Shown here: positions 15,772-41,627 of the stretch, one piece after another
How positions within the stretch are numbered: position 1 is the first letter of the stretch
Layout of the letters: the number at the start of each line of letters is the position of its first letter
IMG/VR virus record: IMGVR_UViG_2773857866_000003
Reading direction: 5' to 3' (one strand)
DNA: 64,000 nucleotides
From: a virus
Lineage: Duplodnaviria > Heunggongvirae > Uroviricota > Caudoviricetes
Program-made: the position numbers and the translations under genes
The notes under the pieces: model-generated
Seen by the model: the letters and a program-made list of their open reading frames with translations, nothing else
What the model was told of the DNA's origin: nothing
Databases searched by the model: none

Positions 15772-16750
15772 CATTTTGTTCATTTGTAGTCGCTACACTA
15801 CAAACCGTCATCTTTCATGACTGCTTGCGCTCTCACGCAAGTTCAGACTATATCTTTTCCAATCTCCATTTCAGACACCAAACACTTGTATCTTACGCCT
15901 CACTAATGAGGTCTTACTAGTCGTTGAACCTTCTCAAATAACCAAATTTTTGTTCATAAAATATTCTTTTTTGCTTTGCCTCTTCAAGAGTATCGAAATC
16001 TTCATCTATAACATTACCATCGAGGTCAATTATTCTCATTCTGTATGTTTTTCCACTTCTTTTTTTATTGTAGTGAACACCATTAAAAGGGATTTCTTTA
16101 TTTTTTTCTGCTGTAGTTTTATTTCTCGCATTGATTTGAGGTGTAACAATTCTAAGATTTGACTTTATATTGATTAGAGGATTTCTATTTATGTGGTCAA
16201 CAACTGTATTTGTATCCGTTTTATTCATGACAAGATTATATAAATAGATTTTCTCTCCGTGAGTACGAGACATTGGATAACCATTCACATTAAGTTGCCA
16301 ATAATATTTTTTAACTTTTCCTAAATCTTCTGTGTCAATTAAAATATCAATTATCTTGGAATTTTTCTGTTCCCAGTAGTATATATGCGTTTCATTTCCG
16401 TCTATTTTATATGGGTTCCATATTTTTTCATCTTGATTATAACTTTGTTCTACAACAGCTTTTAGAAGTTCACCATATCTTTTTACAGAATAACTTGCTT
16501 TATTATCATCGCTAAATTTTACTATTACTCTTGTATCATATTCATATATTGCTTTCACATATTCACACCTCCTCGTGTGTATTCTAGTTTTGGTTATTTA
16601 AGCTTGGCTGCGGATTGTCTAATTCTGATGCTTTTTACCCTATCTCCGACATTACTCTTTGCCATGTGTTCTTTGCAGAACACATTTGGTACATCAGACT
16701 CTAAAGAGTTTCCCGCAATTAAAAGACTTTTAATTCAGCCTGATATTACA
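15772..16750 (-). mobile_element. group I intron 1 in dnaE carrying an HNH-AP2 homing endonuclease gene (979 nt)
   Basis: It lies between exon 1 (ends ttt cag t) and exon 2 (tt gat aca...) and the intron ends in G (aatg). It contains a free-standing HNH ORF and has structured GC-richer flanks. Confidence 0.6.
15917..16558 (-). CDS. HNH homing endonuclease with AP2 DNA-binding domain (intron-encoded)
   Basis: VVDHINRNPLINIKSNLRIVTPQINARN is an HNH_3 motif; GVHYNKKRSGKTYRMRII is an AP2-like domain. Confidence 0.8.
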   Translation of the reverse strand: MKAIYEYDTRVIVKFSDDNKASYSVKRYGELLKAVVEQSYNQDEKIWNPYKIDGNETHIYYWEQKNSKIIDILIDTEDLGKVKKYYWQLNVNGYPMSRTHGEKIYLYNLVMNKTDTNTVVDHINRNPLINIKSNLRIVTPQINARNKTTAEKNKEIPFNGVHYNKKRSGKTYRMRIIDLDGNVIDEDFDTLEEAKQKRIFYEQKFGYLRRFND

Positions 16751-30708: not shown

Positions 30709-31599
30709 TTATTCCTCCTTAACTACTGCATTTGCACCCTGAACAGTTACCCAACCATGCTGTAATCTTGCCTCTGCCTCTTTCATCTGAATGAGTTCTG
30801 GTGTAATGGAGTTAGATTTCAAATTATTTGCATCTGCCTCCGCCTGAGCTTCGATACGCATTTTTTCTGCTTTTGCTTGAGCCTGTGTTACTGCAATCTG
30901 AGCATCTGCTTCCGCTTGCATTTTTTCGGTTTCTTTTTGAACTTTAATTTTTTCCTGCTCTGCTTCCGCTTGCTGTTTTTCCTGCAAAGCTTTCACTCTA
31001 TCATCAATTGCTGCCTTTAACTTATCGTCAGGATGAACGTCAATAATGGATGCATCCAAAACTTCAATGCCATACGCTTCGCCAAATTCTTCATTTAAAT
31101 ATTCAGTGATTTTGTCGTTGATTTCTGATCTATTTCCACTATATAACTGCATCATACTGTAATCTGTTGTAATTTCAGAAATCTTTGATTTTAACACTGT
31201 TTTCACACGCTGTTCAACAATATCTTCTCCATCCATACCTTTGAATTTCTTATATGTATCTACTACTGTTTCAGGAATATATCTATAGGACATCTGAAAA
31301 CTAATAGAAATACTTGCATCATCAGAAGTAGCAACTTTGAAAGAGTCGTCCCCTTCACTTCCTTCTCTCTTATCTTTTGATAGAATTAACTGTTCATTTC
31401 CAATTGTAAATTCTTTTACGTGAATACCAGGAAGAACAAAATGTACTCCCATGTCCAATACTTCATCTTTTACTCCACCATTCAATGAATATTGAACTCC
31501 TACTCTTCCTGTTGGAATTTTTTCCATCTGGCTCACTGTAAAAACTCCGCCTGCCAATGCAACTACTAAAACAATACTAGCTATAACTTTTTTCTTCAT
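30709..31599 (-). CDS. SPFH/band-7 (stomatin/HflKC-like) membrane protein
   Basis: An N-terminal TM helix followed by an SPFH core (GVQYSLNGGVKDEVLDMGVHFVLPGIHVKEF...), then a coiled-coil tail. Confidence 0.6.
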   Translation of the reverse strand: MKKKVIASIVLVVALAGGVFTVSQMEKIPTGRVGVQYSLNGGVKDEVLDMGVHFVLPGIHVKEFTIGNEQLILSKDKREGSEGDDSFKVATSDDASISISFQMSYRYIPETVVDTYKKFKGMDGEDIVEQRVKTVLKSKISEITTDYSMMQLYSGNRSEINDKITEYLNEEFGEAYGIEVLDASIIDVHPDDKLKAAIDDRVKALQEKQQAEAEQEKIKVQKETEKMQAEADAQIAVTQAQAKAEKMRIEAQAEADANNLKSNSITPELIQMKEAEARLQHGWVTVQGANAVVKEE

Positions 31600-31740
31600 G
31601 GCTTATGGTCTTCCTCCAATTCTTTTTCTATCTTTTTGTCATCTTTTTTGATTGAATTGATAACTTTATTTCCAATCCATACAATTATCAATCCCAACAC
31701 TGCATATCCTAAAACCGCTAAAAGAAATAGAACCCACATA

Positions 31741-32484
31741 TTATTTCATTCCTTTCTTTGCTTTCAGTTCAGCTAACTTCTTATTGATTTCTTCGTCTTT
31801 CATTTTTTTATCCAGACGTTTTTTCTGCACGCTAGCAGAATTTTCATAAGCTATTCTGTTTCCTTCAGACTCTTCTCTTGCTTTTCTGACTCCATCTCTG
31901 ACTTTTTCTAACATTTTATCTTCTTCATTTGAAGACACTGTGGTATCAGCTTTCAAAGATTTTGTAGCTTCTACTGTTTCCAAAGTGAATACGGTTTTTT
32001 CTTTTTCAGCTTTTAACTGTGCCAAATCATCATAGAGCTTATCAACTGTCTCTTTCTGCAACCTTTCGTTCTCTTTCAAATCCTTAATACCTTCTTTGAG
32101 AACTTCCATCTTATCTGTAATTTCTTGCTGCATTTTCAAATATGTTTTAGCCCCTTCATCATCACCACGAGATACGCAAGAGTCAATATCCATATTAACT
32201 TTCATTTCATCTTTTTGGAGTGTTCTTAAATCTTTTTCAAATGCAGATAATTTTCCAAGAATTTGACTATAGTTAGCACTTGCTTTAGAATAATCTTCTT
32301 CTTTCTTTTCAATAGCAGCATTAAAATATGCTTTTGCACCTTCAGGAGTAGATGCATCTTCACTTAATTTTTCATTGATTGTTCCTGTTGCTCTAAGGCG
32401 AATTCTTTTGCCTATTTTTGTAAACAAAAGAATTCCTCCAACAATACCAACAGTTAATAAAAGTAATACCGTTGCGAAAGTCAT
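31741..32484 (-). CDS. PspA/IM30-like coiled-coil protein with N-terminal TM anchor
   Basis: Helical repeats throughout; the N-terminal EDASTPEGAKAY and C-terminal KLAELKAKKG resemble PspA (EDPQKLVRL...LAQLKAKMK). Confidence 0.4.
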   Translation of the reverse strand: MTFATVLLLLTVGIVGGILLFTKIGKRIRLRATGTINEKLSEDASTPEGAKAYFNAAIEKKEEDYSKASANYSQILGKLSAFEKDLRTLQKDEMKVNMDIDSCVSRGDDEGAKTYLKMQQEITDKMEVLKEGIKDLKENERLQKETVDKLYDDLAQLKAEKEKTVFTLETVEATKSLKADTTVSSNEEDKMLEKVRDGVRKAREESEGNRIAYENSASVQKKRLDKKMKDEEINKKLAELKAKKGMK

Positions 32485-33125
32485 TAAGCATCCCTACCTT
32501 CATCAATGTCTAAATCAAATGTTTTAAATAATTCAACCATACCGCCTGTATAACCAGAACCAATTGCCTGAAATTTAAATCCACCGTTATGCTTGTATAA
32601 TCTTCCAAGCTCCACAGCATTTAATTTTTCAAACTTTTCATCTTCTGATAAATCAAAGTTTGCTTCAAAACCTGACGGATTGTCATAGTCATATACTGTA
32701 ACCATTGCATTATTTACCATGCCAAAATTCTGCAATCGTTGAATTGCTCTGAAAATTGTTAAGCAAATTGTAAAGTCTGTTTTGTTTGCTGGAAACTTAT
32801 CAGCGTGAACAATAAAATACTCATCAAAATGTCTCCCATTAAATTCAATACCCTGTGAGTCATCGCCTGTTCTGTTATCTCCAGAGTATTCAACCCACGG
32901 ATAATTTTTTCCATCTCCGTATGTACTAAAATTCACGATATCTGAAGGATATTGAACTTTTTTATCGCTGTTTGTTAAGAACCCATGTATATCAAAATCA
33001 ATATCTCCTTCGCCGGAAAATCTATTCATATCCCAACGCACACCAATGAAAATATTTTTAATGTTGCTTCCATCTTCTTTTGTCATGTTAATTTTTTGAT
33101 TTTTACTCATATCAATTACTGGCAT
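32484..33125 (-). CDS. TerD-domain protein
   Basis: N-terminus IDMSKNQKINMTKE...GVRWDMN...GDIDFDIHGFL matches the TerD pattern (SLSKGgnVsLtK ... GLGWD ... DlDasafll). Confidence 0.6.
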   Translation of the reverse strand: MPVIDMSKNQKINMTKEDGSNIKNIFIGVRWDMNRFSGEGDIDFDIHGFLTNSDKKVQYPSDIVNFSTYGDGKNYPWVEYSGDNRTGDDSQGIEFNGRHFDEYFIVHADKFPANKTDFTICLTIFRAIQRLQNFGMVNNAMVTVYDYDNPSGFEANFDLSEDEKFEKLNAVELGRLYKHNGGFKFQAIGSGYTGGMVELFKTFDLDIDEGRDA

Positions 33126-33137
33126 TTTTTCTTCCTC

Positions 33138-33884
33138 CTATTTATTCGCTAACCAATCTTTATATTGTCTCAAAAGCTCTGTATATAGCTGCTCATCATC
33201 TAATTTTGCAATATCTTTTACAGAGATAAACCCTGTATTATCATTCTCTCTGCCTTTCATGTCGTCCAAAGATTTCAGATATTTAAAATTATCATTTCCA
33301 ATTCCTACAAACTGGACAAATATGTTGTATGCGGATAATTCCCTGATAATGTCATTTGTTTTTTCTTTATCCCAGTTATCTCCATCTGTAATAAACATGA
33401 TAAATGCAGGAATTGTGCTAGGCTCAATATCTTTATAGTGATGAACCATACTTGTTAATACAGGTGCATATTCCGTACCTCCCATGCCCATACGTGCTTT
33501 CAACATTACTTTATCTACATAGTTTTCATAATTCTTTTCAGTAATAACTTCAAGTCTTTCTTCTCCATTTGAAAATAGCCAACATTCCAGTTCTTTATTA
33601 TCATCAAACCTCAAGGCAATAGGAAGAAGTCTTGTAATTACATCCTGTACTTTTCCTTCTCTAAATTCATCGCTCATACTTCCACTATAATCCATTGCAA
33701 CTGCAACTCTTGCCGTATGTTTTGTCATATCAATCTTGTTATCTTTTGACATGTTAATTAAAACTTTATTCAAATTCTCTTTTGACATATCAATACATAC
33801 TTTTTTAGTTTCCTGAGCTGGTGCACTATTGTGCCCAGACTCAGTTTCATTTTTATTTCCATTTAAAAAACTGAAAAATCCCAT
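33138..33884 (-). CDS. vWA-domain protein (TerY-like) with TerD-like N-terminal repeats
   Basis: MIDAS motif VAMDYSGSM, downstream FITDGD, and N-terminal IDMSKENLNKVLINMSKDNKIDMTK repeats. Confidence 0.6.
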   Translation of the reverse strand: MGFFSFLNGNKNETESGHNSAPAQETKKVCIDMSKENLNKVLINMSKDNKIDMTKHTARVAVAMDYSGSMSDEFREGKVQDVITRLLPIALRFDDNKELECWLFSNGEERLEVITEKNYENYVDKVMLKARMGMGGTEYAPVLTSMVHHYKDIEPSTIPAFIMFITDGDNWDKEKTNDIIRELSAYNIFVQFVGIGNDNFKYLKSLDDMKGRENDNTGFISVKDIAKLDDEQLYTELLRQYKDWLANK

Positions 33885-36502
33885 TATTTATTTCTCCTTT
33901 TCTTCATTGTTTTTCTAATAAAATCTGCTAACAGAACGATTGTGGATAATGCTGTTACTGCTAACCACTGAGTTAAGTTCAATGAAGCTGTATGTAATAC
34001 GCTTCCCCCAAACTGTACAAGAGCAATAGTTCCTACGAAAATCCCAATAGCAATTCGATAGAATAATTTATTCTTGCTTAATCCTTTAAACAGGTTTCTA
34101 CTATCTGTTCTAAGAGTAAAGCCATTTAATACCGCCATAAAGCAAAGTAAAGCAAATCTCGCTGATAATCCAGCGGCTTCAGTTGCAAATAAATGCTTAA
34201 TTGGACTAAAAATCATTAAACCAAACGCTAAAGAGAAGATACATGCGTTAATAGCAATATGTTTTTTACTTCCATTTACAAATAATCCTTCACCTTTCTT
34301 TAAAGGTTGTTCTTTCATATATTCATCTTTTGGAGGTTCACCACCAAATGATAAGGAGTTCAAAGAGTCCATAATAATGTTGATAATAAGAATAAGAGCT
34401 GATGTTAAGAAAGAGCCTGTTAAAAAGACTGGATATAAGAAGTTCATAGCAAGAAGTGAATAATTGATTGGCAACTGGAAATTCAAGAACATAAGAATAT
34501 TGTGCATAAATGTTCTTCCAAGTTTTACTCCTTTTACAATAGAAGCAAAGTTATCGTCTACAAGGATAATATCACCAGCTTCTTTTGCCACATCAGTGCC
34601 ACTATTCATGGCGAAACCAACGTCAGATTTTGTTAATGCTGGTGCATCATTTGTACCGTCACCTGTCATTGCTGTGGAATATCCAAGCTCCTGAGCTAAT
34701 GTAATAAGTCTCAATTTTGTTGTAGGAGAACATCTAGCAATAACTCTTAAACGTGGAATAATGTCTTTAATTTCTTCATCTGTCATTCCAGAAAACTCTG
34801 CATCAGTTAAAGCCATATCACCTTTTTCATAAATACCAGCTTCTTGAGCTACTGCAACTGCTGTTTCAATACAGTCTCCTGTAATTTCTACTACTGTAAT
34901 TCCAGCCTCTTTTGCTGTCTTAACAGCATCAGGAACTTCTTTACGAACTGGATCTTGTACTCCAATTACTGCTGTGAATACTAAATCTTCTGGTATTACA
35001 TTTTCCTCTAAAGCTTCCATATTGTATGCAAATGCAATACATCTCATTGCTTTCGTGGTAAGGTCATAGATTTCACTCAAGATATTTATTCTATCCTCAT
35101 CTGTCATTTCGACAATTTTCCCATTTTCTAGTCTGTATTTACAATTGGATAAAATCTTTTCAGGAGCACCCTTATAATAGGAAGTATCTCCAAACTCACA
35201 GCTTGTAGAAAACGCTGAATACTTAAATTGACTATTGAAAGGCTGTTTTTTAGATTTTGGGTTTTGAGTCAAAATAGAATTGAATTCAGATTGATTAAGA
35301 AGACTAAGCATTGCTCTATCTATTGAATTGCCACCAGTAATTTTTCCTTTTTCATCAAATAAGCTTCCGCTTGTTAAAGCTATATTTTCTTTAAGAATTT
35401 CTGGTAGATTATCTTTATTTATTTTTTGAGATTTCATGTCACCAGTAATAATTTCTTTTGGTGTCATAACACCTGTTGTCAATGTTCCTGTTTTATCTGT
35501 ACATACGTAATTCACATAAGCCAATTCTGGTATCTTTGAAGGATTTTTTGTAAGAATATTTGCCTTTTCCATTGTCTTAACATTCATTTTAGTAACAAAT
35601 TTTACAATCATTGGTAATCCTTCTGGTACAGCAGCTACAATAATTGTCAGGGCTACTGAAATGTTTTCAGCGATTGTTCTTATTATCTGTAACACATCTC
35701 CTGAAAAGTATTCTCTAAATCCAACTTCTAAGATACCTGTTGCTGTTGCGATTAAAAATCCTCCAAAGGCTGCCACTGTTCCCCATTTAGAAATAAAATC
35801 AGCTAACTTATCTAATGCAATATCTAAAGCAGTTTTAGTAGGCTCTAATGTTTGCATTTTTACCAGTGTGTCTCCATTGACAGTGTTAATACCAACTGTC
35901 TGTACTAACATTTTTGCTTCACCAGACATAACAGTTGTTCCGGCAAATACGCACGTTTCATCTGTATAATGGTCTGTAGTTATTTCTTCTGGATATTTAA
36001 ATCCTGAAATGTAATGTTTTTTACATTCTTTTGTTTCACCATTAATTGCAGCGTTACTTACAGCAATTTCACCTTCAACAATGTAACCATCTGCAAAGAT
36101 TTCCTGTCCCATTTCAAGACATATAATATCGCCAACTACAATATCATCTTTATTGATTTTTACAACAGAACCATTTCTAATTACATTACAATATCTAACC
36201 GCCGTTTTTGCTCTTAGACTATTATTTGATTTCTGTATTGATAGATTTGTTCTAACATTAATTCCACTCACAATTGCTAACACTGCTAAAATAATAACAG
36301 GCTCACTAAAACTTTCTACTCCTAGAAATGCAAGAGCAAAGAAAACTCCAGCCATCATGATTAGAATAATTGTGATTTTATCCTTTAATCCGTCTGTAAA
36401 AAAATTAAACCACGTCTTTTGCTTTGGTTCTGGCAGCTTATTGCTACCATATTTTTGTCTGCTTTTTTCTACTTGCTGGTCATTTAAACCATTCAAATTC
36501 AT
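33884..36502 (-). CDS. P-type cation-transporting ATPase (type II, Ca2+/Mg2+-like)
   Basis: Phosphorylation motif CTDKTGTLT, hinge motif TGDGTNDAPAL, and ~10 TM helices. Confidence 0.85.
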   Translation of the reverse strand: MNLNGLNDQQVEKSRQKYGSNKLPEPKQKTWFNFFTDGLKDKITIILIMMAGVFFALAFLGVESFSEPVIILAVLAIVSGINVRTNLSIQKSNNSLRAKTAVRYCNVIRNGSVVKINKDDIVVGDIICLEMGQEIFADGYIVEGEIAVSNAAINGETKECKKHYISGFKYPEEITTDHYTDETCVFAGTTVMSGEAKMLVQTVGINTVNGDTLVKMQTLEPTKTALDIALDKLADFISKWGTVAAFGGFLIATATGILEVGFREYFSGDVLQIIRTIAENISVALTIIVAAVPEGLPMIVKFVTKMNVKTMEKANILTKNPSKIPELAYVNYVCTDKTGTLTTGVMTPKEIITGDMKSQKINKDNLPEILKENIALTSGSLFDEKGKITGGNSIDRAMLSLLNQSEFNSILTQNPKSKKQPFNSQFKYSAFSTSCEFGDTSYYKGAPEKILSNCKYRLENGKIVEMTDEDRINILSEIYDLTTKAMRCIAFAYNMEALEENVIPEDLVFTAVIGVQDPVRKEVPDAVKTAKEAGITVVEITGDCIETAVAVAQEAGIYEKGDMALTDAEFSGMTDEEIKDIIPRLRVIARCSPTTKLRLITLAQELGYSTAMTGDGTNDAPALTKSDVGFAMNSGTDVAKEAGDIILVDDNFASIVKGVKLGRTFMHNILMFLNFQLPINYSLLAMNFLYPVFLTGSFLTSALILIINIIMDSLNSLSFGGEPPKDEYMKEQPLKKGEGLFVNGSKKHIAINACIFSLAFGLMIFSPIKHLFATEAAGLSARFALLCFMAVLNGFTLRTDSRNLFKGLSKNKLFYRIAIGIFVGTIALVQFGGSVLHTASLNLTQWLAVTALSTIVLLADFIRKTMKKRRNK

Positions 36503-38118
36503 TTGCTTTTTCCCTCCAGTTCTTTAAATCTATCTTCAATAATCTGATACCTTTCTGTATTAAGCTGTTTTAATAGGCATTTGTACGGGTCTAATTCATT
36601 ACTTAATACCATATTCATTATGTTTACAGAATATCCTGATACAAGTGCTACTCCATTCGCATTTTCTCTAACAGGGATTGTTCCTGTTCTTGAACAAATA
36701 TTCCAAAACACCAGTCTTGGTAATTTATATCCGTATCGTTCATATTCTTTAGCAAATTCATCAAACATTGCTTTATCTGTTCTTCCTGAAGTCATACAGT
36801 CAAATTCCATATCCGAAATCATCAATAGCGTGTTTGGCAAATCAGATTGTTTCATGTTGTTTTTTACAGCCGTGTCTAATAATAACTGGAATACTCTTTC
36901 AATATTCGTATTACTGCAATCTGTATTTTTTAAAGTAATCTGAATTTTTTCTTTAAGATTTTGACAGTTGCTAATATCAACAAACCTTGGTCTATTTCCA
37001 AATGTCATAAACTTATTATTGAATTGACCAGAACATCTCTCAGCAAAGTAAATAGAAAGTGCTGTTGCAACTTCTTCTGCTTGCACTGAAGAATTTCTAT
37101 CTATTGGTTGATACATACTTCCAGAACCATCTTGAATAACCATAATATTTTCTGCTGACTGAATAGTATCTTTTTGATTTTTCCAAAGTTGTTCTAATGT
37201 CTCATCATATTTTTTTAATTTATAACTCCAACCATATCCATCTACAGTAACATACTGATGCACAATATCGTGAGGAAAGTTAGTAGAAGCATTGATTTTT
37301 ACTCCTTCTTTTCCGTTAGCCAAATCTTCAAGATACTGTTGTCTTCTTTCTGGATCGTGTTTAAGAAAAGCGTTTCGATATAATAGATTTGCTTTAGAAG
37401 GTACTGAATTGTAGTCAATTGCTGACCATTGATTTGCACACATAAAAGTTTCTACCAAATTGAGTTTCTTACGCAATTTCACCAACATACGATTGTATGT
37501 CTTATCATCGAGTTCTAACCCTTCAATAATAAGTCTTGCATAATGTCTTGATATATGACTTTCTGCATTACGTTTTGGTAGCCACTTCGCAAGCAATGAT
37601 ATTGGTTTATCTTCAGTATAATTTTTAATATCTTCTTGAAGCTGTGCGTTTATCATTTTAATTACTATACTGTTAAGTTGTGTATCAAGCAATACCCATG
37701 TATCATCATATCGTCCATATTCTGCTATATATGGAATAAATAGTGTCATCTCATGTGGTCTAAAGTCAGCCATATACTTGATAATTCTGTGAAAAGTATC
37801 TCTTTCACCCATCCCACCTCTAATATCACGTAAGAAGAATAGCCATTTCCATGCATACATTGGGTTTTCATAATAAGCAGCTTGGAACAAGTTGATTAAT
37901 TCTTTGTCTGTTTTCTTTCGTAGCGAACTTGTCATATAGTTAATATCTACCAAAACATGACCTGAAGACTTATATCCAATTGCACCGTTTTCACTTATGG
38001 ACACATTATATGGCAATTCATTTAGTGTTTCTTTTACAGCTTCTGCAAAATTTAATCCTTTTGGTTTCAAATATAATTCGCCATCTGCTACAAAATCTTT
38101 TATAAAATTGTTTTGCAT
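36499..38118 (-). CDS. Ro60/Rsr-like TROVE plus vWA protein
   Basis: 539 aa (human Ro60 is 538 aa). NFPHDIVHQYVTVDGYGWSYKLKKYDETLEQLWKN...IMVIQDGSGSM aligns to recalled Ro60 [34 protein letters not shown]...LLAVDVSASM. The downstream vWA motifs NTDCS and LLMISDMEFD correspond to Ro60 GGTDCS and VFIVFTDNETF. Confidence 0.55.
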   Translation of the reverse strand: MQNNFIKDFVADGELYLKPKGLNFAEAVKETLNELPYNVSISENGAIGYKSSGHVLVDINYMTSSLRKKTDKELINLFQAAYYENPMYAWKWLFFLRDIRGGMGERDTFHRIIKYMADFRPHEMTLFIPYIAEYGRYDDTWVLLDTQLNSIVIKMINAQLQEDIKNYTEDKPISLLAKWLPKRNAESHISRHYARLIIEGLELDDKTYNRMLVKLRKKLNLVETFMCANQWSAIDYNSVPSKANLLYRNAFLKHDPERRQQYLEDLANGKEGVKINASTNFPHDIVHQYVTVDGYGWSYKLKKYDETLEQLWKNQKDTIQSAENIMVIQDGSGSMYQPIDRNSSVQAEEVATALSIYFAERCSGQFNNKFMTFGNRPRFVDISNCQNLKEKIQITLKNTDCSNTNIERVFQLLLDTAVKNNMKQSDLPNTLLMISDMEFDCMTSGRTDKAMFDEFAKEYERYGYKLPRLVFWNICSRTGTIPVRENANGVALVSGYSVNIMNMVLSNELDPYKCLLKQLNTERYQIIEDRFKELEGKSK

Positions 38119-38158
38119 TTTTAATTTCCCTTTCTTTGTATTTTAGATTTTACACCTA

Positions 38159-38232
38159 TCAGAACACTAGGACTCGAACCTAGAACGAAAGCTTCCAACA
38201 CTAACCGAGTTACCCATTACTCTCATATTCTG
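38159..38232 (-). ncRNA. tRNA-like element, 74 nt (possible degenerate tRNA with UGG anticodon loop GTTGGAA; weak anticodon stem)
   Basis: Acceptor CAGAATA/TGTTCTG with one GU pair, a T arm CTAGG-TTCGAGT-CCTAG, and a D loop containing GGG. Confidence 0.35.
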
Positions 38233-38235
38233 TTG

Positions 38236-38362
38236 TGCGGAGAAGCAAGACTCGAACCTGCGACATCTGGCTCCCTAAGCAATATGTATGTTGCTGCATG
38301 TAACGAATATTTTACATCGCTACAATTTTAACAGTGCTCTATCCATCTGAGCTATTCTCCGC
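38236..38362 (-). ncRNA. tRNA-like RNA with ~55 nt insertion in the anticodon-arm position (Y-RNA/YrlA-like candidate), 127 nt
   Basis: 8 bp acceptor GCGGAGAA/TTCTCCGC, D arm GCTCAGATGGATAGAGC, T arm GCAGG-TTCGAGT-CTTGC, and an insert carrying TTGTAG and TTACATGCAGCAA. Confidence 0.5.
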
Positions 38363-38368
38363 ATATTT

Positions 38369-38496
38369 TGCAGGACAACCGGACTCGAACCGATAACCAC
38401 GGCGTTAAAAGCGCATTAGAAATAATTGCTGTATGTAACATATTTATAACAATACTACAAAGTTTACGTGCTCTAGCCAATTGAGCTATGTCCTGC
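38369..38496 (-). ncRNA. tRNA-like RNA with ~55 nt insertion (paralogue of 38236..38362), 128 nt
   Basis: 8 bp acceptor GCAGGACA/TGTCCTGC, D arm GCTCAATTGGCTAGAGC, T arm ATCGG-TTCGAGT-CCGGT, and an insert carrying TTGTAG and TTACATACAGCAA. Confidence 0.5.
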
Positions 38497-38519
38497 ATAT
38501 TAAATTTTCTCAGCTACAT

Positions 38520-38623
38520 TTAATTGTGATGGATTTGAACCATCTCGAAATATTTTGTCATAATACTTTCTTTAACCATTTGTTTTATATTTTGCTGTAT
38601 GTAACTGATTTGAATTTTTCATT
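38520..38623 (-). ncRNA. degenerate tRNA-like/structured RNA carrying the same TTACATACAGCAA motif
   Basis: The 3' T arm GATGG-TTCAAAT-CCATC and a 9 bp imperfect terminal helix are present, but there is no canonical D arm. Confidence 0.25.
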
Positions 38624-38836
38624 CACAATAAATCGTTACTTTATTGCAGTTCTCTTATGAACTTCTGCATTTCACAATGCAGTTTTACCCTATTCTCTTT
38701 ACCTCTACTTAGAGTGCTACGAATTAGAAATATTGTTTCCTTTTACGATTGGGGCATGTCCTTGAGTAAATTTATTTGGAAGTGATTTATATGTTTGAAA
38801 ATATATTTCAAAATTTTAAAGTTATAGCTCAAGGAA

Positions 38837-38910
38837 TTGCGGAGAGTGGATTTGAACCACTGATCTTTAGCTGATGAGGCTAACGAGCTTCCAGACTGCT
38901 CTACTCCGCA
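38837..38910 (-). tRNA. tRNA-Met (anticodon CAT), 74 nt
   Basis: The hand-folded cloverleaf is complete: acceptor TGCGGAG/CTCCGCA, D GAGC-AGTCTGGAA-GCTC, anticodon stem TTAGC/GCTAA with loop CTCATCA, T AGTGG-TTCAAAT-CCACT. Confidence 0.65.
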
Positions 38911-38981
38911 TCAGAATTGCAGTTATTCCTGCAACTCATTTAAAAGTAAATAAAAAAGATAACCTCTCCAACAAAGGAGCT

Positions 38982-39091
38982 TGCAATGAGCAAGAGTCGA
39001 ACTTGCGACCTGCTGGTTTGTTTTGCTGTCTACAATGTATTTTTAACAACATTGTTTTTGCCAGCCGTTCTCCCAACTGAACTATCATTGC
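38982..39091 (-). ncRNA. tRNA-like RNA with intact anticodon stem but a 44 nt loop, 110 nt
   Basis: Acceptor GCAATGA/TCATTGC, D GTTC-AGTTGGGA-GAAC, anticodon stem GCTGG/CCAGC enclosing CAAAAACAATGTTGTTAAAAATACATTGTAGACAGCAAAACAAA, and T GCAAG-TTCGACT-CTTGC. Confidence 0.5.
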
Positions 39092-39174
39092 ATTTATTTT
39101 TACCTTTACCCTGTAGAGTATTGCATTTTTGGGGGTGTGTTAGGGGTGTTTAAAAATACAGAGTAAAGATAAAA

Positions 39175-39246
39175 CTGGGATAGCTGGATTCGAACCAGCG
39201 AATACAGGAGTCAAAGTCCTGTGCCTTACCGCTTGGCGATACCCCA
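39175..39246 (-). tRNA. tRNA-Gln (anticodon TTG), 72 nt
   Basis: Acceptor TGGGGTA/TATCCCA, D GCC-AAGCGGTAA-GGC, anticodon stem CAGGA/TCCTG with loop CTTTGAC, T GCTGG-TTCGAAT-CCAGC. Confidence 0.8.
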
Positions 39247-39293
39247 AGAAAGGAGTCTACTATTTGAAAAAAATCATAAAGCAAATAGTAGAG

Positions 39294-39441
39294 AGATAAG
39301 CAATGGATTTGAACCATCTCTATAATGTAAAGTCTGTTTCATGTGCACATTCCACATTCATCGCATCATATTTTACTCGTTCCATATCATACTTTCCTTA
39401 GTTCGTGCACGTTCCAAAGATTTCTGTTGAGTATGCTTATC
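39294..39441 (-). ncRNA. 148 nt structured RNA with tRNA-like acceptor and T arm enclosing a ~130 nt insert that has two GTGCAC-centred palindromes
   Basis: The termini GATAAGC/GCTTATC pair, and there is a T arm GATGG-TTCAAAT-CCATT. The interior holds ACGTGCACGAAC and ATGTGCACATG palindromes and a TTTACAT motif; there is no D arm. Confidence 0.35.
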
Positions 39442-39585
39442 AAAATTAGTAGACTCAAAGGCTCATTACCTCTCATGAGTAAGGGATAAAACCTTAGTAA
39501 AAACTGTTACTTGTACAGGTACGCATTACAGTAAAAACTATATCTACTCTGTTTTTATGGCAATTGATTTAATCTATCAGCCTAA

Positions 39586-39659
39586 TGGGGCTTATAGGAC
39601 TCGAACCTATGACTTCTCGGTTATGAGCCGAGCGTTCTAACCAACTGAACTAAAGCCCC
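39586..39659 (-). tRNA. tRNA with CAT anticodon (Met or lysidine-Ile2), 74 nt
   Basis: Acceptor GGGGCTT/AAGCCCC, D GTTC-AGTTGGTTA-GAAC, anticodon stem CTCGG/CCGAG with loop CTCATAA, T ATAGG-TTCGAGT-CCTAT. Confidence 0.8.
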
Positions 39660-39692
39660 TTACATCGCAGCTTATGCTACGATGGTTTTATT

Positions 39693-41627
39693 TTACAAAA
39701 GTGTTAGAAATTCTTCTTCGCTTATAATTGGAATACCAAGCTCTTTTGCTTTTTTATTTTTAGAAGAATTTGACGTTGTATCATTGTTAATCAGATAATG
39801 TGTCTTTGAAGTCACACTCCCTGTTACTTTGCCTCCGTGAGTTTCAATTGTAGATTTTAAATCATTTCTATTTGAGAACTTATTCAAACTTCCTGTAATC
39901 ACAAATGTTTTGTTGGTTAATGAAAGGAGTTCCTCCGTTTTTATTTTTTCTTCAAACACAAGAATTTTAACAAGTTGCTCAATTTCTTCTGATTTATAAT
40001 CTTCTTTAAACCAATCGTATATAGATTTATTTAATACATCTCCAAAACCGTCTAATTTACTAAAATCAAATTTCTCTTTCATGGATTTTATCAAATCATC
40101 CCATGTATCAAAATGATTAAATATCTCTCTTGATTGACTTCTTCCAATTTTAGGTATTCCTAATGCATACAACAATCTTTCAGGACTTACTTGTTTACTT
40201 TTCTCTATTGACAGGAATAATTTTTCAACAGATTTTTTACCAAATCCCGGTATTGACATCCAAGTTGCCTTATACTGAGATAAATTGTAAAAATCTTTAA
40301 ATGTCTTTAACCATCCTTTTTTCACGAGAAAATCAACAGTAGCCTCTGACATTCCCTCAATATTCATTGCGTCTCTTTCACAAAAATGTACAAATTTTCC
40401 AATAAGCTTTTCTGGACAGTGTGTATTCATGCACATTAGAACCTCTGTATCATTAGAGCAAATTATATTAGTGTCTCCTCCACATATAGGACATTGTTTT
40501 GGGATATCTAAATTGTTGCTCTTTGTGCTGTTTTCAACAATTTGGGGGATTATCATATTAGACTTGATAACTTTGATTGTATCTCCTATGCCGAGTTTCA
40601 ATTCTTTAATAATACTGATATTATGCACACTGGCACGACTTACCGTAGTCCCTTCCAGCTCTACCGGCTCAAAAATTGCTACCGGATTAAGTAAGCCTGT
40701 TCGTGAAGGACTCCATTCAATCTTTTTTAAAGTAGTTTCCGCAACTTCATCTTTCCATTTGAAAGCAAACGAATGTCTTTCAAATTTCGAAGTATTGCCA
40801 AGAGAATTGCCATAATCAGTATTGTTATATGAAACTACAAGACCGTCTGTCGGAATGTCATTATTTTCGATTTTTCTTTTAAAAAATTTTACACATTCTT
40901 CTATATTGTCTTTATTTACAGGATAATGTTCTACAACATTAAATCCTATTTCAGAAAGCCAATTAAATTGTTTGTCCATTGTCTTAAATTTACTACCAGA
41001 GATTAGTCTAAATATAATGACTTGGACATTTCTTTTTTGACTTTCGGATGCATCAAGTAAGCGAATACTTCCTGAAGCAAGATTTCTTGGGTTTTTATAT
41101 CTTGCTCCAACATCTTCTATCTGAGAATTAATTCTGTCAAAATCAGTATATGAAATAACTGCTTCACCTCTAAGAATTAGTTTCTCTTTATATGGAATTT
41201 TCAATGGTACTCCTTTACATCTTGATACATTTTGAGTGATAATTTCACCTGTTGTACCGTTTCCTCTTGTCACGGCTTTTTGCAGCTCGCCATTGTCGTA
41301 AGTAAGAACAACAGTTAGTCCATCTAATTTCCATGACAAAATTCCATCTTTATCGCTTATCCAGCTTTTTAAAGTTTCAACACTTTTTGTTTTGTCTAAA
41401 GAAAGCATCTTCTTTTCATGCTTTTCTTTTGGCAAGAAGTCTAAAAAATCGTTTGCTACAGATTGTGTTGGAGAATCGGAATAAATAACTCCTGTTTCTT
41501 TCTCCATATCTACCAGCTTATCGTAGAGTTTGTCATAATCATAGTTAGACATGATTTCTCTACTTTCCTGATAGTAAGCAACGTTAGCTGCTTTTAATTG
41601 TTCTATGATAGCTCTCATTTCATTCAT
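39693..41627 (-). CDS. ligA: NAD-dependent DNA ligase
   Basis: Adenylation motif WKLDGLTV (KxDG), a Cys4 zinc finger (CPICGGD...C..C), HhH repeats and a C-terminal BRCT-like region. Confidence 0.85.
   Translation of the reverse strand: MNEMRAIIEQLKAANVAYYQESREIMSNYDYDKLYDKLVDMEKETGVIYSDSPTQSVANDFLDFLPKEKHEKKMLSLDKTKSVETLKSWISDKDGILSWKLDGLTVVLTYDNGELQKAVTRGNGTTGEIITQNVSRCKGVPLKIPYKEKLILRGEAVISYTDFDRINSQIEDVGARYKNPRNLASGSIRLLDASESQKRNVQVIIFRLISGSKFKTMDKQFNWLSEIGFNVVEHYPVNKDNIEECVKFFKRKIENNDIPTDGLVVSYNNTDYGNSLGNTSKFERHSFAFKWKDEVAETTLKKIEWSPSRTGLLNPVAIFEPVELEGTTVSRASVHNISIIKELKLGIGDTIKVIKSNMIIPQIVENSTKSNNLDIPKQCPICGGDTNIICSNDTEVLMCMNTHCPEKLIGKFVHFCERDAMNIEGMSEATVDFLVKKGWLKTFKDFYNLSQYKATWMSIPGFGKKSVEKLFLSIEKSKQVSPERLLYALGIPKIGRSQSREIFNHFDTWDDLIKSMKEKFDFSKLDGFGDVLNKSIYDWFKEDYKSEEIEQLVKILVFEEKIKTEELLSLTNKTFVITGSLNKFSNRNDLKSTIETHGGKVTGSVTSKTHYLINNDTTSNSSKNKKAKELGIPIISEEEFLTLL

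What the first reader, a model, noticed from the sequence alone, without database searches (positions are those of the whole stretch)
36499..39692. Phage-encoded Ro60/Rsr-like protein next to an array of tRNA-like RNAs with anticodon-arm insertions (candidate Y-RNA / YrlA-type module)
The 539 aa protein at 36499..38118 carries a C-terminal vWA domain with a MIDAS motif (DGSGSM, NTDCS, ISDMEFD). Its 330 aa N-terminal helical region aligns in several blocks to the human Ro60 sequence as I recall it (HPFHIL...KTGHG...[14 protein letters not shown]...AVDVSASM versus FPHDIV...VDGYG...KLKKYDETLEQLWK...VIQDGSGSM). Within 30 nt of its start begins a 1.5 kb non-coding region holding three canonical tRNAs and at least four elements that keep tRNA acceptor, D and T arms (GG in the D loop, TTCGAGT/TTCAAAT T loops) but have 40-130 nt replacing or filling the anticodon loop. 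This is the architecture described for bacterial YrlA-type Y RNAs, which are Ro60 ligands, and those are typically encoded beside rsr. A phage-borne Rsr plus Y-RNA set next to an RNA ligase and Pnkp would be an RNA surveillance or repair module not described for this kind of phage.
Basis: partly seen in the sequence, partly recalled or inferred. Interest (0 to 1): 0.85.

Follow-up and report, generated by a model that had tools for sequence, protein, structure and literature searches.

The report
Phage Ro60-like protein with tRNA-derived partner RNAs
A phage gene for a ring-shaped RNA-binding protein of the Ro60 type sits beside a cluster of small tRNA-derived RNAs that share a short signature (a helix followed by ACAGCAA), and this protein-RNA pairing recurs in many phages, including ones that can be grown in the lab, but I found no description of it in the papers I could search.

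Summary

The 1.57 kb upstream holds three ordinary tRNAs plus six unusual elements. In two of them (Lys-UUU-like and Pro-AGG-like) a ~50-nt insert splits the 5' strand of the anticodon stem, and an intact 7-nt anticodon loop follows it. The insert does not replace that loop.

- In 80 distantly related phage loci this 7-mer piles up just upstream of the Ro-like gene: 203 copies in the last 500 nt, none on the opposite strand, 76 of 80 loci.
- It also flanks the gene in the six isolate phages examined (one as the variant ACAGCYA), among them EFDG1, Tsamsa, a P100-like Listeria phage and LeBron.
- It comes in four layouts: inside tRNAs, as free ~60-nt units often displaying an anticodon-like hairpin, enclosing whole tRNA-like sequences, and in YrlA-like permuted tRNA-like units.

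Best reading: a Ro60/Y-RNA-type ribonucleoprotein module with its own RNA signature. It is not a member of Rfam YrlA. Function is inferred, not shown. This is a new variant of a known kind.

The parts
36499..38118 (-). Ro60-like protein, 539 aa: helical-repeat ring (about residues 50-290) plus a C-terminal vWA domain with a MIDAS site. Its stop overlaps the start of the downstream P-type ATPase gene by 4 nt.
38159..38232 (-). E7: 74-nt tRNA-like element without an insert. Its loop is GTTGGAA (Pro-UGG-like) and only 3 of 5 anticodon-stem pairs form.
   Evidence: Rfam tRNA 36.2 bits. The anticodon position reads TGG, CGG, AGG or TGT in the orthologues.
38236..38362 (-). E6: tRNA body with an 8-bp acceptor stem, D arm and T arm. 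A ~51-nt insert sits after CTG (nt 27-29) of the anticodon stem. The insert is the hairpin GTAGCG/CGTTAC, then AT, then GCAGCAA (38297-38291). It is followed by GC[TTAGGGA]GCCAG, a Pro-AGG anticodon loop with G37.
   Evidence: Sequence. Orthologues keep Pro anticodons AGG or GGG. Cloverleaf with split anticodon stem: 99% of cells paired across 20 diverse members.
38370..38495 (-). E5: tRNA body with a ~52-nt insert after CG (nt 27-28) of the anticodon stem. The insert is the hairpin TGTAGTAT/ATGTTACA, then T, then ACAGCAA (38432-38426). It is followed by GCG[CTTTTAA]CGCCG, a Lys-UUU anticodon loop with A37.
   Evidence: Rfam tRNA 37.3 bits with a 65-nt gap.. The orthologue in L004 reads ATGATAA (Ile-GAU), and L005 shows a compensatory GCA/TGC stem.
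38510..38608 (-). E6': free-standing unit. The outer stem TCAGTTACA/TGTAGCTGA closes T-ACAGCAA (38598-38592), a spacer, an anticodon-like stem-loop GTATT[ATGACAA]AATAT (Val-GAC-like) and a T-arm hairpin. There is no D arm.
   Evidence: The minimum-free-energy fold gives exactly this structure. The outer stem covaries in L005: TCAGATACAT/ATGTATCTGA. The L005 loop reads GAA.
38837..38910 (-). Canonical tRNA-Met (CAT).
   Evidence: ARAGORN and Rfam, 60.5 bits.
38982..39091 (-). E4: tRNA-like body (acceptor, D and T arms) whose anticodon loop is replaced by the hairpin ACAATGT/ACATTGT, then AG, then ACAGCAA (39029-39023). It has no anticodon loop, so it is the most Y-RNA-like element in the window.
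   Evidence: Rfam tRNA 52.3 bits with a 43-nt gap. Fold. The hairpin sequence differs but still pairs in L001 (GTAACG/CGTTAC) and L004.
39174..39247 (-). Canonical tRNA-Gln (TTG).
39295..39441 (-). E2b: an acceptor-like stem GATAAGC/GCTTATC encloses the variant ACAGAAA (39427-39421), ~115 nt of unassigned sequence and a T arm (39318-39302). Membership of the family is tentative.
   Evidence: Sequence and MFE fold. Conserved in L001 and L003, absent in L004 and L005.
39586..39659 (-). Canonical tRNA-Met (CAT), the first gene of the array after the DNA ligase gene.
   Evidence: 76.4 bits.
25854..28207 (-). RNA ligase (25854-27140) and a polynucleotide-kinase-like P-loop protein (27317-28207), 8-10 kb downstream on the same strand. 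These are possible functional partners, not part of the locus proper.
   Evidence: Pfam RNA_ligase 2e-08; AAA_33 6.8e-19 and KTI12.

Best explanation
The locus is a phage version of the Ro60/Y-RNA ribonucleoprotein module. The protein is a divergent Ro60 homologue (DUF2828/DUF7788 family), a helical ring plus a vWA domain. The RNAs upstream on the same strand are its cognate small RNAs.

The RNAs are built from tRNA parts plus one conserved module: a short helix whose 3' strand runs, after 1-2 nt, into single-stranded ACAGCAA. I infer that this helix-plus-tail is what the protein binds.

The rest of each RNA is a tRNA-like 'cargo'. In the window there are three kinds:
- a whole tRNA body with the module in place of the anticodon loop (E4);
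- a tRNA body with the module inserted 5' of a preserved anticodon loop (E5 Lys-like, E6 Pro-like);
- an acceptor-like stem holding the module, an anticodon-like hairpin and a T arm (E6').

I infer that the RNAs are cut out of a long transcript by tRNA-processing enzymes. I also infer that the complex uses its tRNA or anticodon-loop mimicry to engage factors that recognise tRNAs, such as anticodon nucleases, modification or repair enzymes, or exonucleases. This would place it in tRNA damage control or counter-defence, alongside the phage RNA ligase and kinase.

Shown here: the fold, the RNA architecture, the motif, and the motif's linkage to the gene. Inferred: binding, processing and biological role.
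For: Protein:

Linkage of the RNA motif to the gene:
- In 80 IMG/VR loci with 45-52% identical proteins, ACAGCAA on the gene strand occurs 203 times in the 500 nt upstream. I estimate ~2-3 by chance. There are none on the other strand, and 76 of 80 loci have a copy within 600 nt.
- This holds where ordinary tRNA arrays lie downstream of the gene and largely lack the motif (L040, L042, L046, L047).
- Motif units flank the gene in six isolate phages from six hosts: Enterococcus EFDG1, Bacillus Tsamsa, Listeria LMTA-34, mycobacteriophage LeBron, coliphage JH2 and Staphylococcus Alsa_2, the last with the variant ACAGCYA.

Structure of the RNAs:
- 54% of motif sites have a flanking stem of at least 7 bp, against 13% of random sites in the same regions.
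- Among 136 distinct free-standing units (137 before a minor filter) there are 88 distinct stem sequences.
- 55 of the 136 units carry a hairpin of at least 4 bp with a 7-nt Y-U-NNN-R-N loop, against 6.5 expected from shuffled loops.
- Among 100 T-arm-linked elements, position 37 follows the tRNA rule. G36 goes with G37 in 9 of 10 cases, and A or U at position 36 goes with A37 in 83 of 84.
- The cloverleaf with a split anticodon stem is 99% paired in 20 diverse members, and 15 of 21 pairs show changes on both sides. Slid controls reach at most 45%. RNAalifold independently finds the acceptor, D, T and 3-bp anticodon stems.

Bridge to Y RNAs:
- In EFDG1 and LeBron the units have the YrlA order: closing stem, T arm, closed acceptor hairpin, D arm. 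They give sub-threshold but non-random YrlA hits of 43.2, 34.2 and 39.8 bits, with E 7e-7 to 3e-4.

Context:
- An RNA ligase and a kinase lie in the window. RtcB lies 1.3 kb from the gene in the Listeria phage. LeBron has an RNA ligase and a PNK (PMC13148394).
- Ro60 genes with adjacent Y-like RNAs are established in bacteria and phages (PMC4201824, PMC12135203).
Against: - No binding, expression or processing data exist for any member.
- Pfam TROVE does not hit the protein, and sequence similarity to Ro60 is limited to the MIDAS region.
- The known Ro-binding motif GNCGAAG is absent. The Rfam YrlA alignments in EFDG1 start 3' of ACAGCAA, so positional equivalence of the two motifs is not shown.
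- The reverse association is incomplete. Of 30 structured copies found with one specific stem sequence, 16 had no DUF2828 gene in the few kb of DNA held. Most of those lie in tRNA arrays of phage contigs over 100 kb, where the gene may be elsewhere.
- The bare 7-mer is only about 2-fold enriched across the whole 64-kb window.
- Several of the sets used for pair counts were chosen for pairing, so those percentages are partly circular.
- The preserved, tRNA-like anticodon loops would equally fit real tRNAs.
Confidence: 0.6

Rival explanations
1. The insert-bearing elements (E5, E6 and their relatives) are genuine tRNA genes with a new kind of protein-dependent intron. The intron lies in the 5' strand of the anticodon stem. 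The hairpin-ACAGCAA is the splicing signal, an unknown endonuclease cuts, and the phage kinase and RNA ligase reseal. The Ro-like protein is a splicing cofactor or is unrelated.
For: - Removing the insert restores a 5-bp anticodon stem and a 7-nt loop with U33 and the correct nucleotide 37.
- The bodies have well-paired acceptor, D and T stems with strong covariation.
- Anticodons differ between orthologues, as if the coding repertoire were evolving.
- An RNA ligase and a kinase are present.
- The 5' junction CG|UA is conserved.
Against: - The same module occurs in units that cannot be tRNAs: free ~60-nt units with no D or T arm, and permuted YrlA-like units.
- It also occurs in E4, where no anticodon loop remains.
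- About 20 of 100 elements carry Ser, Leu or Tyr anticodons on bodies with 4-5-nt variable loops. From general knowledge, bacterial Ser, Leu and Tyr tRNAs normally have a long variable arm.
- The insert position varies (26/27, 28/29, 29/30), and so does the motif-to-junction spacing.
- By inspection there is no bulge-helix-bulge geometry. Rfam finds no group I intron.
- The motif tracks the Ro-like gene rather than tRNA arrays in general.
Confidence: 0.1
2. The repeated helix-ACAGCAA units are cis-acting leader elements of the Ro-like gene's mRNA, for example autoregulatory binding sites or processing and stability signals. On this view they are not independent small RNAs.
For: - In 76 of 80 loci the units sit directly upstream of the gene on the same strand.
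- In L042, L046 and Tsamsa a sigma-70-type promoter precedes the units, and I saw no terminator before the gene on reading the sequence.
- The window shows no terminator between the array and the gene.
Against: - In LeBron, JH2 and Staphylococcus phage Alsa_2 the units lie downstream of the gene.
- Structured copies occur kilobases from any DUF2828 gene, inside tRNA arrays.
- The units carry tRNA-like cargo with conserved T and D arms and anticodon-type loops, which a leader has no need for.
- The two readings are compatible. Salmonella YrlA/YrlB are also encoded in the rsr operon (PMC4201824, PMC7790460).
Confidence: 0.1
3. The elements are functional tRNAs that keep the extra arm, or decaying tRNA pseudogenes invaded by a small mobile hairpin repeat. 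Either way they have no specific relation to the neighbouring protein.
For: - The elements sit in a tRNA array with normal tRNAs.
- E7 has a degenerate anticodon stem.
- Homing endonuclease genes and group I introns occur in related arrays (L005; L066), so the region is prone to invasion.
Against: - The module is strand-specific and is conserved with covarying stems across phages of Firmicutes, Actinobacteria and Proteobacteria.
- Pseudogenes would not keep 99% paired stems with compensatory changes.
- The motif clusters at the Ro-like gene even where tRNA arrays lie elsewhere.
- A ~50-nt arm protruding from the anticodon stem should clash with the ribosomal decoding sites. This is an inference from ribosome-tRNA structures, not something tested here.
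Confidence: 0.08

Closest known systems
Bacterial and phage Ro60 (Rsr) with YrlA-type Y RNAs (Chen et al. 2014, PMC4201824; Rfam RF02553)
   Same: - A ring-plus-vWA protein is encoded next to one or more small RNAs built from tRNA T and D arms.
- A closing helix carries a short conserved motif on its 5' side.
- RNA repair genes lie nearby (rtcB in Salmonella; Rnl, PNK or RtcB here and in relatives).
- In the EFDG1 and LeBron relatives the RNA even has the YrlA domain order.
   Different: - The protein is DUF2828/DUF7788, not Pfam TROVE.
- The motif is ACAGCAA, not GNCGAAN0-1G.
- Rfam scores stay below the gathering score: 32-43 bits against 69.
- The window RNAs are in normal tRNA order, with their ends at the acceptor stem.
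- Many members display a genuine-looking anticodon stem-loop, which YrlA lacks.
Thermus phage phiLo Ro60 with Yrl1/Yrl2 (PMC12135203; PDB 9KOP, 9L5Y)
   Same: - It is the best structural match to the window protein.
- It is phage-encoded.
- Two Y-like RNA genes lie directly upstream of the gene.
- The paper proposes that the complex hijacks host PNPase as an anti-defence strategy.
   Different: - phiLo Ro60 is a recognised TROVE protein, about 16% identical to the window protein.
- Its RNAs are stem-bulge-stem Y RNAs defined by a CGAA motif, with no tRNA body or anticodon loop.
Mycobacteriophage 'Ro-like RNA binding protein' (e.g. LeBron gp53; PMC13148394)
   Same: - It belongs to the same protein family (31% identity over 94% of the window protein).
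- ACAGCAA units lie beside the gene.
- The genome also encodes an RNA ligase and a polynucleotide kinase.
   Different: - In LeBron the units lie downstream of the gene and include a permuted tRNA-like unit.
- The papers I found treat the protein only as an annotation or as a cytotoxic gene, and do not describe its RNAs.
tRNA introns: archaeal or eukaryal bulge-helix-bulge introns at non-canonical positions, and bacterial group I introns in tRNA genes (PMC4090602, PMC3984707)
   Same: An insertion interrupts the anticodon arm of an otherwise complete tRNA gene. Removing it would restore a normal anticodon stem-loop.
   Different: - There is no bulge-helix-bulge geometry by inspection.
- At ~50 nt the inserts look too short for a group I intron (general knowledge), and there is no Rfam group I hit.
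- The insert carries a conserved sequence motif that is also found outside tRNAs.

Membership tests
Ro60 / TROVE proteins (Pfam PF05731) | Match to the Pfam TROVE profile | tested here: not met
   hmmscan at E<=1 lists only DUF7788, DUF2828 and one spurious hit. A profile of 31 homologues against PDB sequences reaches only E 0.24 on a phage Ro60.
Ro60 / TROVE proteins (Pfam PF05731) | Fold: alpha-helical repeat ring followed by a vWA domain | tested here: met
Ro60 / TROVE proteins (Pfam PF05731) | MIDAS motif (DxSxS ... T ... D) in the vWA domain | tested here: met
Ro60 / TROVE proteins (Pfam PF05731) | Binds Y RNA on the ring surface and single-stranded RNA ends in the central hole | not testable with these tools
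   Needs biochemistry or a structure of the complex.
DUF2828 + DUF7788 (PF11443, PF25043; PHROG 850) | Profile matches above the curated cut-offs | tested here: met
   112.5 and 140.2 bits against cut-offs of 29 and 27.1. PHROG 850 at 7.8e-121. 6612 cluster representatives at E<=1e-3.
YrlA Y RNA (Rfam RF02553) | Covariance-model score at or above the gathering score (69 bits) | tested here: not met
   The best hit in the window is 32.5 bits at 38313-38423, and it joins the T arm of E5 to the D arm of E6. Relatives score 43.2 and 34.2 (EFDG1) and 39.8 (LeBron).
YrlA Y RNA (Rfam RF02553) | Permuted tRNA-like domain: closing stem, T arm, closed acceptor-like hairpin, D arm | tested here: not met
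   The window elements have 5'/3' acceptor stems and the order D arm, anticodon arm, T arm. The sequence between the E5 T arm and the E6 D arm cannot form a hairpin. The permuted order is seen in the EFDG1 and LeBron relatives.
YrlA Y RNA (Rfam RF02553) | GNCGAAN0-1G motif near the 5' end (PMC4201824) | tested here: not met
   There is no match on the minus strand of 38119-39692. The conserved motif there is ACAGCAA.
YrlA Y RNA (Rfam RF02553) | Encoded next to the Ro60-type gene | tested here: met
   The array ends 40 nt from the start codon. The same linkage holds in 76 of 80 distant loci and in six isolate phages.
Canonical tRNA (Rfam RF00005) | Cloverleaf with a contiguous 5-bp anticodon stem and a 7-nt loop | tested here: not met
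   E4, E5 and E7 pass the tRNA gathering score (52.3, 37.3 and 36.2 bits). However, E4 and E5 do so with 43- and 65-nt gaps in the anticodon arm, and E7 has 2 of 5 mismatches there. E6 is not reported by Rfam. ARAGORN's intron mode gives forced, inconsistent models.
Group I intron in a tRNA gene | Group I catalytic core (Rfam RF00028) | tested here: not met
   No hit at E<=10 in 38000-39800.
Bulge-helix-bulge (archaeal-type) tRNA intron | Two 3-nt bulges separated by a 4-bp helix formed between the 5' end of the intron and the 3' exon | tested here: not met
   By inspection of E5 and E6, the first intron bases (UAAAC / UUAAA) cannot pair with the first bases of the 3' exon (GCGC / GCUU). No dedicated search tool was available.

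The most novel reading that the evidence does not exclude
The helix-ACAGCAA insert is a new class of protein-dependent tRNA intron or processing handle in bacteriophages. On this reading the Ro-like ring holds the insert and the adjoining anticodon stem-loop, the RNA is cut at the junctions, and the phage kinase and RNA ligase reseal it. The system would yield mature tRNAs, or swap or repair anticodon loops; the free ~60-nt units would then be spare anticodon stem-loops. This would be tRNA splicing or anticodon-loop replacement of a kind unknown in bacteria and their viruses.
Probability: 0.08. Interest if true: 0.92.

Novelty: new variant of a known kind. Interest (0 to 1): 0.68.

Why it matters
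Ro60/Y-RNA particles are conserved from bacteria to humans, and Ro60 is a major autoantigen, yet their function in bacteria and phages is still poorly defined.

This locus points to a large second branch of the system. The protein search found 6612 cluster representatives, and 709 isolate phage genomes carry a homologue. The branch has its own RNA signature.

The partner RNAs range from whole tRNAs to bare anticodon-like hairpins. That suggests the particle works on, or imitates, the anticodon arm, which is the part of tRNA that many anti-phage nucleases attack. This last point is inference.

Because the same module is present in phages that are easy to grow (Enterococcus EFDG1, Listeria P100-like, Bacillus Tsamsa, Felix O1-like coliphages, mycobacteriophage LeBron), the idea can be tested directly. 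There is also a practical consequence: standard tRNA finders miss or miscall these elements in phage tRNA arrays.

Tried and rejected
- **ARAGORN intron mode.** It called E4, E5 and E6 as Phe, Arg and Cys with forced long variable arms. These calls conflict with the comparative data, so I rejected them in favour of the split-stem model.
- **Reading the window's YrlA hit as a true permuted Y RNA.** I rejected this. The segment between the E5 T arm and the E6 D arm (TGTCCTG...GCGGAGA) cannot pair, and each strand pairs perfectly with its own tRNA partner.
- **A short covariance model of 'motif + anticodon-like hairpin' (A4/R1).** It had too little information for this AT-rich genome (32% GC). 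The best window hits were AT-rich hairpins in genes, and E6' reached only E 0.4. This was a dead end, and the 100% pairing comes from how the sequences were selected.
- **MAFFT on whole free-standing units (A3).** It cannot align the covarying 3' strands, so no full-unit model was built.
- **Close-relative scan of 185,579 species genomes.** It found nothing, so the host remains unknown.
- **Nucleotide search of isolate phages.** It matched only the tRNAs.
- **Literature.** A search for 'DUF2828' found only unrelated plant and tardigrade papers. AcrIIIA1, a protein-RNA anti-CRISPR that binds tRNA fragments, is an unrelated 10-kDa protein. The supplements of Chen et al. 2014, which list the phages they examined, are not held. 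I therefore cannot exclude that some DUF2828-type phage loci were already in their YrlA set.
- **IS200/IS605-type ends (hairpin + TTAC) and small self-cleaving ribozymes.** I considered these for the insert. Nothing in Rfam at E<=10 supports them, and the TTAC is not conserved in distant members.
- **Promoter or terminator explanations for the units.** A 7-10-bp stem with a ~40-nt loop is not terminator-like, and the window array has no sigma-70-type site on the minus strand.

Full report
**1. What is at the coordinates**

All genes in the window are on the minus strand. The ORF 36499-38118 encodes 539 aa. Between it and an NAD-dependent DNA ligase gene (39693-41627) lie 1574 nt without a credible ORF.

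ARAGORN and Rfam at gathering threshold find tRNA-Met (39586-39659), tRNA-Gln (39174-39247) and tRNA-Met (38837-38910). Rfam adds a weak tRNA at 38159-38232. With permissive thresholds Rfam's tRNA model also hits 38982-39091 (52.3 bits, with a 43-nt gap in the anticodon arm) and 38370-38495 (37.3 bits, with a 65-nt gap). YrlA gives a 32.5-bit hit (gathering score 69) at 38313-38423.

**2. The protein**

Pfam gives DUF2828 (2.9e-32) and DUF7788 (7.5e-41), and no TROVE hit even at E<=1. PHROGs gives family 850, 'RNA-binding protein'.

Sequence searches of the PDB touch only the MIDAS region of a phage Ro60 (E 0.004 for the single sequence, 0.24 for the profile).

An AlphaFold2 model built on 31 homologues is confident from residue ~50 onward (pLDDT 82.4, pTM 0.77).
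- Foldseek against the PDB returns Ro60 structures as the nine best hits, each aligned over 515-574 columns. They are the Thermus phage phiLo crystal and cryo-EM structures, human, Xenopus and D. radiodurans Ro60, with E from 1.7e-11 to 6.4e-6. After them come only isolated vWA domains.

The MIDAS residues are invariant or nearly so in the family.

The family is large: 6612 representatives at E<=1e-3. It is present in 709 isolate phage genomes, where some members are already annotated 'Ro-like RNA binding protein'.

**3. Anatomy of the RNAs in the window**

Reading the minus strand, the elements are as follows.

- **E4 (39091-38982).** It has acceptor, D and T arms and an intact anticodon stem GCTGG/CCAGC. 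The loop is replaced by CAAAA, the hairpin ACAATGT/ACATTGT, AG, ACAGCAA and AACAAA.
- **E5 (38495-38370).** It is a complete tRNA body. After C27-G28 comes an insert of ~52 nt: the hairpin TGTAGTAT/ATGTTACA, T, ACAGCAA and an 11-nt spacer. Then the anticodon stem-loop resumes as GCG[CTTTTAA]CGC-CG.
- **E6 (38362-38236).** It is built the same way, with the insert after CTG and the variant GCAGCAA, followed by GC[TTAGGGA]GC-CAG.
- **E6' (38608-38510).** It has no D arm. A 9-bp outer stem (TCAGTTACA/TGTAGCTGA) encloses T-ACAGCAA, a spacer, GTATT[ATGACAA]AATAT and a T-arm hairpin. The minimum-free-energy fold reproduces this.
- **E7 (38232-38159).** It is a 74-nt tRNA-like element with a poor anticodon stem.
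- **E2b (39441-39295).** It has an acceptor-like stem, a T arm and the variant ACAGAAA, but is otherwise unassigned.

So in E5 and E6 the insert does not replace the anticodon loop. It splits the 5' strand of the anticodon stem. What the elements share is a helix followed by 1-2 nt and ACAGCAA.

**4. Close relatives**

Contigs encoding 92-52% identical proteins keep the order ligase, RNA array, Ro-like gene, P-type ATPase, vWA-TerF, TerD.

The orthologous elements show compensatory changes:
- the E5 anticodon stem is GCG/CGC in the window and GCA/TGC in L005;
- the E6' outer stem is T.G in the window and A-T in L005;
- the E4 hairpin has entirely different sequences that still pair.

Anticodon positions also change while the 7-nt loop format is kept. 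E5 reads Lys-TTT in the window and Ile-GAT in L004. E6 reads AGG or GGG. E6' reads GAC in the window and GAA in L005. E7 reads TGG, CGG, AGG or TGT.

**5. Distant relatives: the motif follows the gene**

In 80 IMG/VR loci (45-52% identity; phage contigs mostly 65-200 kb), ACAGCAA on the gene's strand occurs 203 times in the 500 nt upstream of the gene. It never occurs there on the opposite strand. 76 of 80 loci have a copy within 600 nt. My estimate for chance in that amount of sequence is 2-3 copies.

In several loci the ordinary tRNA array lies downstream of the gene and carries few or no motifs, while the motif units still sit directly upstream (L040, L042, L046, L047).

Rfam has no family for these units.

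Motif sites have a flanking stem of at least 7 bp in 54% of cases, against 13% for random sites in the same regions.

Four topologies appear:
- **(a)** hairpin, N1-2, ACAGCAA, ~10 nt, then an anticodon stem-loop inside a tRNA;
- **(b)** a free ~55-75-nt unit in which the strand 5' of the motif pairs with a strand 40-50 nt downstream (88 distinct stem sequences);
- **(c)** the same outer stem enclosing a complete tRNA-like sequence;
- **(d)** in Enterococcus phage EFDG1 and mycobacteriophage LeBron, the outer stem enclosing T arm, closed acceptor hairpin and D arm.

Topology (d) is the YrlA order, and it gives sub-threshold YrlA hits of 43.2, 34.2 and 39.8 bits with E 7e-7 to 3e-4.

**6. Anticodon-like loops**

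Of 136 distinct type-(b) units, 55 contain a hairpin of at least 4 bp with a 7-nt Y-U-NNN-R-N loop, against 6.5 expected from shuffled loops. The spacer after the motif peaks at 9-12 nt. CTTTTAA (Lys-UUU) is the commonest loop.

Of 218 motif-plus-T-arm elements, 100 have such a loop at the canonical distance from the T arm. By my estimate about 4 would by chance. Position 37 obeys the tRNA rule: G after G36 in 9 of 10 cases, and A after A36 or U36 in 83 of 84.

On 20 diverse insert-bearing tRNAs, RNAalifold independently predicts the acceptor, D and T stems and the 3-bp stem next to the loop. The full cloverleaf with a split anticodon stem is 99% paired, with changes on both sides at 15 of 21 pairs. 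Slid controls reach at most 45%.

Caveat: these 20 sequences were pre-selected for acceptor, T-stem and partial anticodon-stem pairing. The percentage paired is therefore inflated. The variety of pair types is the informative part.

About 20 of the 100 elements carry Ser, Leu or Tyr anticodons on bodies with 4-5-nt variable loops. From general knowledge of tRNA classes, that argues against ordinary decoding.

**7. Isolate phages**

The units flank the gene in:
- EFDG1, upstream and after a TTGACA...TATTAT promoter;
- Tsamsa, upstream;
- Listeria LMTA-34, with three units upstream and RtcB 1.3 kb downstream;
- LeBron, downstream;
- JH2, downstream and within a tRNA array;
- Staphylococcus Alsa_2, downstream, with the variant ACAGCYA.

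LeBron also encodes an RNA ligase and a polynucleotide kinase (PMC13148394). The window encodes an RNA ligase and a kinase 8-10 kb downstream.

**8. The reverse test**

I scanned IMG/VR for AAGACACNNACAGCAA. This gave 123 copies in 120 loci.
- 86 copies have neither a partner strand nor a DUF2828 gene in the held stretch. That looks like chance for a pattern of 14 specified bases in a collection that large, though I did not calculate the expectation.
- 7 copies lie in loci with the gene but without an exact partner strand.
- 30 copies have the exact partner strand. Of these, 14 lie in a held stretch that also encodes the gene, and all 21 copies in gene-bearing loci are on the gene's strand.
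- The other 16 structured copies do not have the gene in the held stretch. Most sit in tRNA arrays of contigs over 100 kb, and at least one such contig carries the gene elsewhere (L124 and L018 share a contig).

The association is therefore strong from gene to motif and incomplete from motif to gene, as expected if the RNAs act in trans. Only a whole-genome census can settle it.

**9. Interpretation**

The simplest account is a Ro60/Y-RNA-type module. A Ro-like ring is paired with cognate RNAs, and each RNA has a protein-binding element (helix plus single-stranded ACAGCAA) fused to tRNA-derived cargo.

This matches the published logic of Rsr with YrlA (PMC4201824) and of phiLo Ro60 with Yrl1/2 (PMC12135203). 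The YrlA-order units in EFDG1 and LeBron bridge the two systems.

Binding, processing and function are inferred. The displayed anticodon loops and the nearby RNA repair enzymes suggest a role in tRNA-centred conflict, such as a decoy for anticodon nucleases or a platform for repair or decay. Nothing here tests that.

The intron reading, the cis-leader reading and the pseudogene or extra-arm reading are weighed in the rivals section. None explains why the same module occurs in tRNAs, in free hairpin units and in permuted units, always tied to this gene family.

**10. Novelty**

Known already: phage Ro60 with Y-like RNAs; TROVE proteins alongside RNA ligases in jumbo phages (PMC7824862); the 'Ro-like' annotation of DUF2828 proteins.

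Not found in the searchable literature or in Rfam:
- the ACAGCAA-helix signature;
- its four topologies;
- the split-anticodon-stem tRNAs;
- the free anticodon-loop units;
- their systematic linkage to DUF2828 genes.

I could not read the supplementary phage list of Chen et al. 2014, so partial overlap with their YrlA set cannot be excluded.

Verdict: real, more than chance, and a new variant of a known kind. Interest is moderate to high because it can be tested directly in culturable phages.

Noticed in passing
window 39295-39575 (-): A ~280-nt conserved non-coding stretch lies between tRNA-Met and tRNA-Gln. Its 5' part folds into a long hairpin domain. Its 3' part has an acceptor-like stem (GATAAGC/GCTTATC), a T arm and ACAGAAA. 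There is no Rfam hit, including group I intron and tmRNA. It is present in L001 and L003 and absent in L004 and L005.
   Followed up: partly
window 38611-38836 (-): A 226-nt spacer between tRNA-Met and E6' contains several conserved hairpins (e.g. CTGCATT/AATGCAG and GTAACGATTT/AAATCAGTTAC). The second hairpin competes with the outer stem of E6', so two alternative structures are possible.
   Followed up: no
window 30709-36502 (-); also L001-L011: Directly downstream of the Ro-like gene, with a 4-nt stop/start overlap, lies a conserved block: P-type cation ATPase, vWA-TerF-like protein, TerD, PspA/IM30-like protein and an SPFH/Band 7 protein. This is a tellurite-resistance/membrane-stress-type module. 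Its synteny with the Ro-like gene holds down to 52% protein identity.
   Followed up: partly
L005 108-761; L004 ~430-700; L066 1741-1968 and 2278-2514: The related RNA arrays have been invaded by mobile elements. L005 has a GIY-YIG endonuclease ORF in place of part of the array. L004 has an extra ~250-nt insertion that ends in a T arm plus acceptor strand. L066 has two group I introns (Rfam 83.4 and 49.9 bits) upstream of the Ro-like gene.
   Followed up: no
L010 4511-4816, L011 915-1220; L032 3403-3524: ARAGORN predicts a phage-encoded tmRNA (tag AMYKRPMAMAA*) inside the RNA array upstream of the Ro-like gene. L032 has a weak Rfam tmRNA hit (28 bits) in the same position.
   Followed up: no
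window E5, E6', E7 against L001, L004, L005 (alignment A1): Orthologous elements change anticodon while keeping the loop format. E5 goes from Lys-TTT to Ile-GAT. E6' goes from Val-GAC to Phe-GAA. E7 reads TGG, CGG, AGG or TGT. This turnover is fast compared with the rest of each element.
   Followed up: partly
L170, L219, L149 (free units in tRNA arrays): Some free-standing units have a long pyrimidine-rich loop (ccatctcctttctttctacctccctttctct) instead of an anticodon-like hairpin. It resembles the pyrimidine-rich internal loop that, as I recall, animal Y RNAs have. No Ro-like gene lies in the held stretch.
   Followed up: no
L096 1893-2105 (Listeria LMTA-34) and L097 2154-2366 (Staphylococcus Alsa_2): In two Herelleviridae phages a small gene annotated 'ribosome associated inhibitor A; zinc finger' lies 100-400 nt upstream of the Ro-like gene. 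In the Listeria phage it immediately precedes the RNA units, and an RtcB 'tRNA splicing ligase' lies 1.3 kb downstream of the gene.
   Followed up: no
window 13360-14646 and 16746-18776 (-); 28274-29515 (-): The DNA polymerase III alpha subunit appears split into two genes about 2 kb apart: PHP plus polymerase core in one, and an HHH_6 C-terminal part in the other. A NUMOD1/zinc-finger homing-endonuclease-like ORF sits next to the kinase gene.
   Followed up: no
L098 (ena:ERZ27273428 contig_528_polypolish): The closest relative of the window (99% identical protein, same flanking genes) lies on a polished 637-kb contig. The element may therefore be a megaphage or a prophage in a chromosome fragment. 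No relative was found in 185,579 species-representative genomes, and a Lak megaphage protein is only 24.5% identical.
   Followed up: partly
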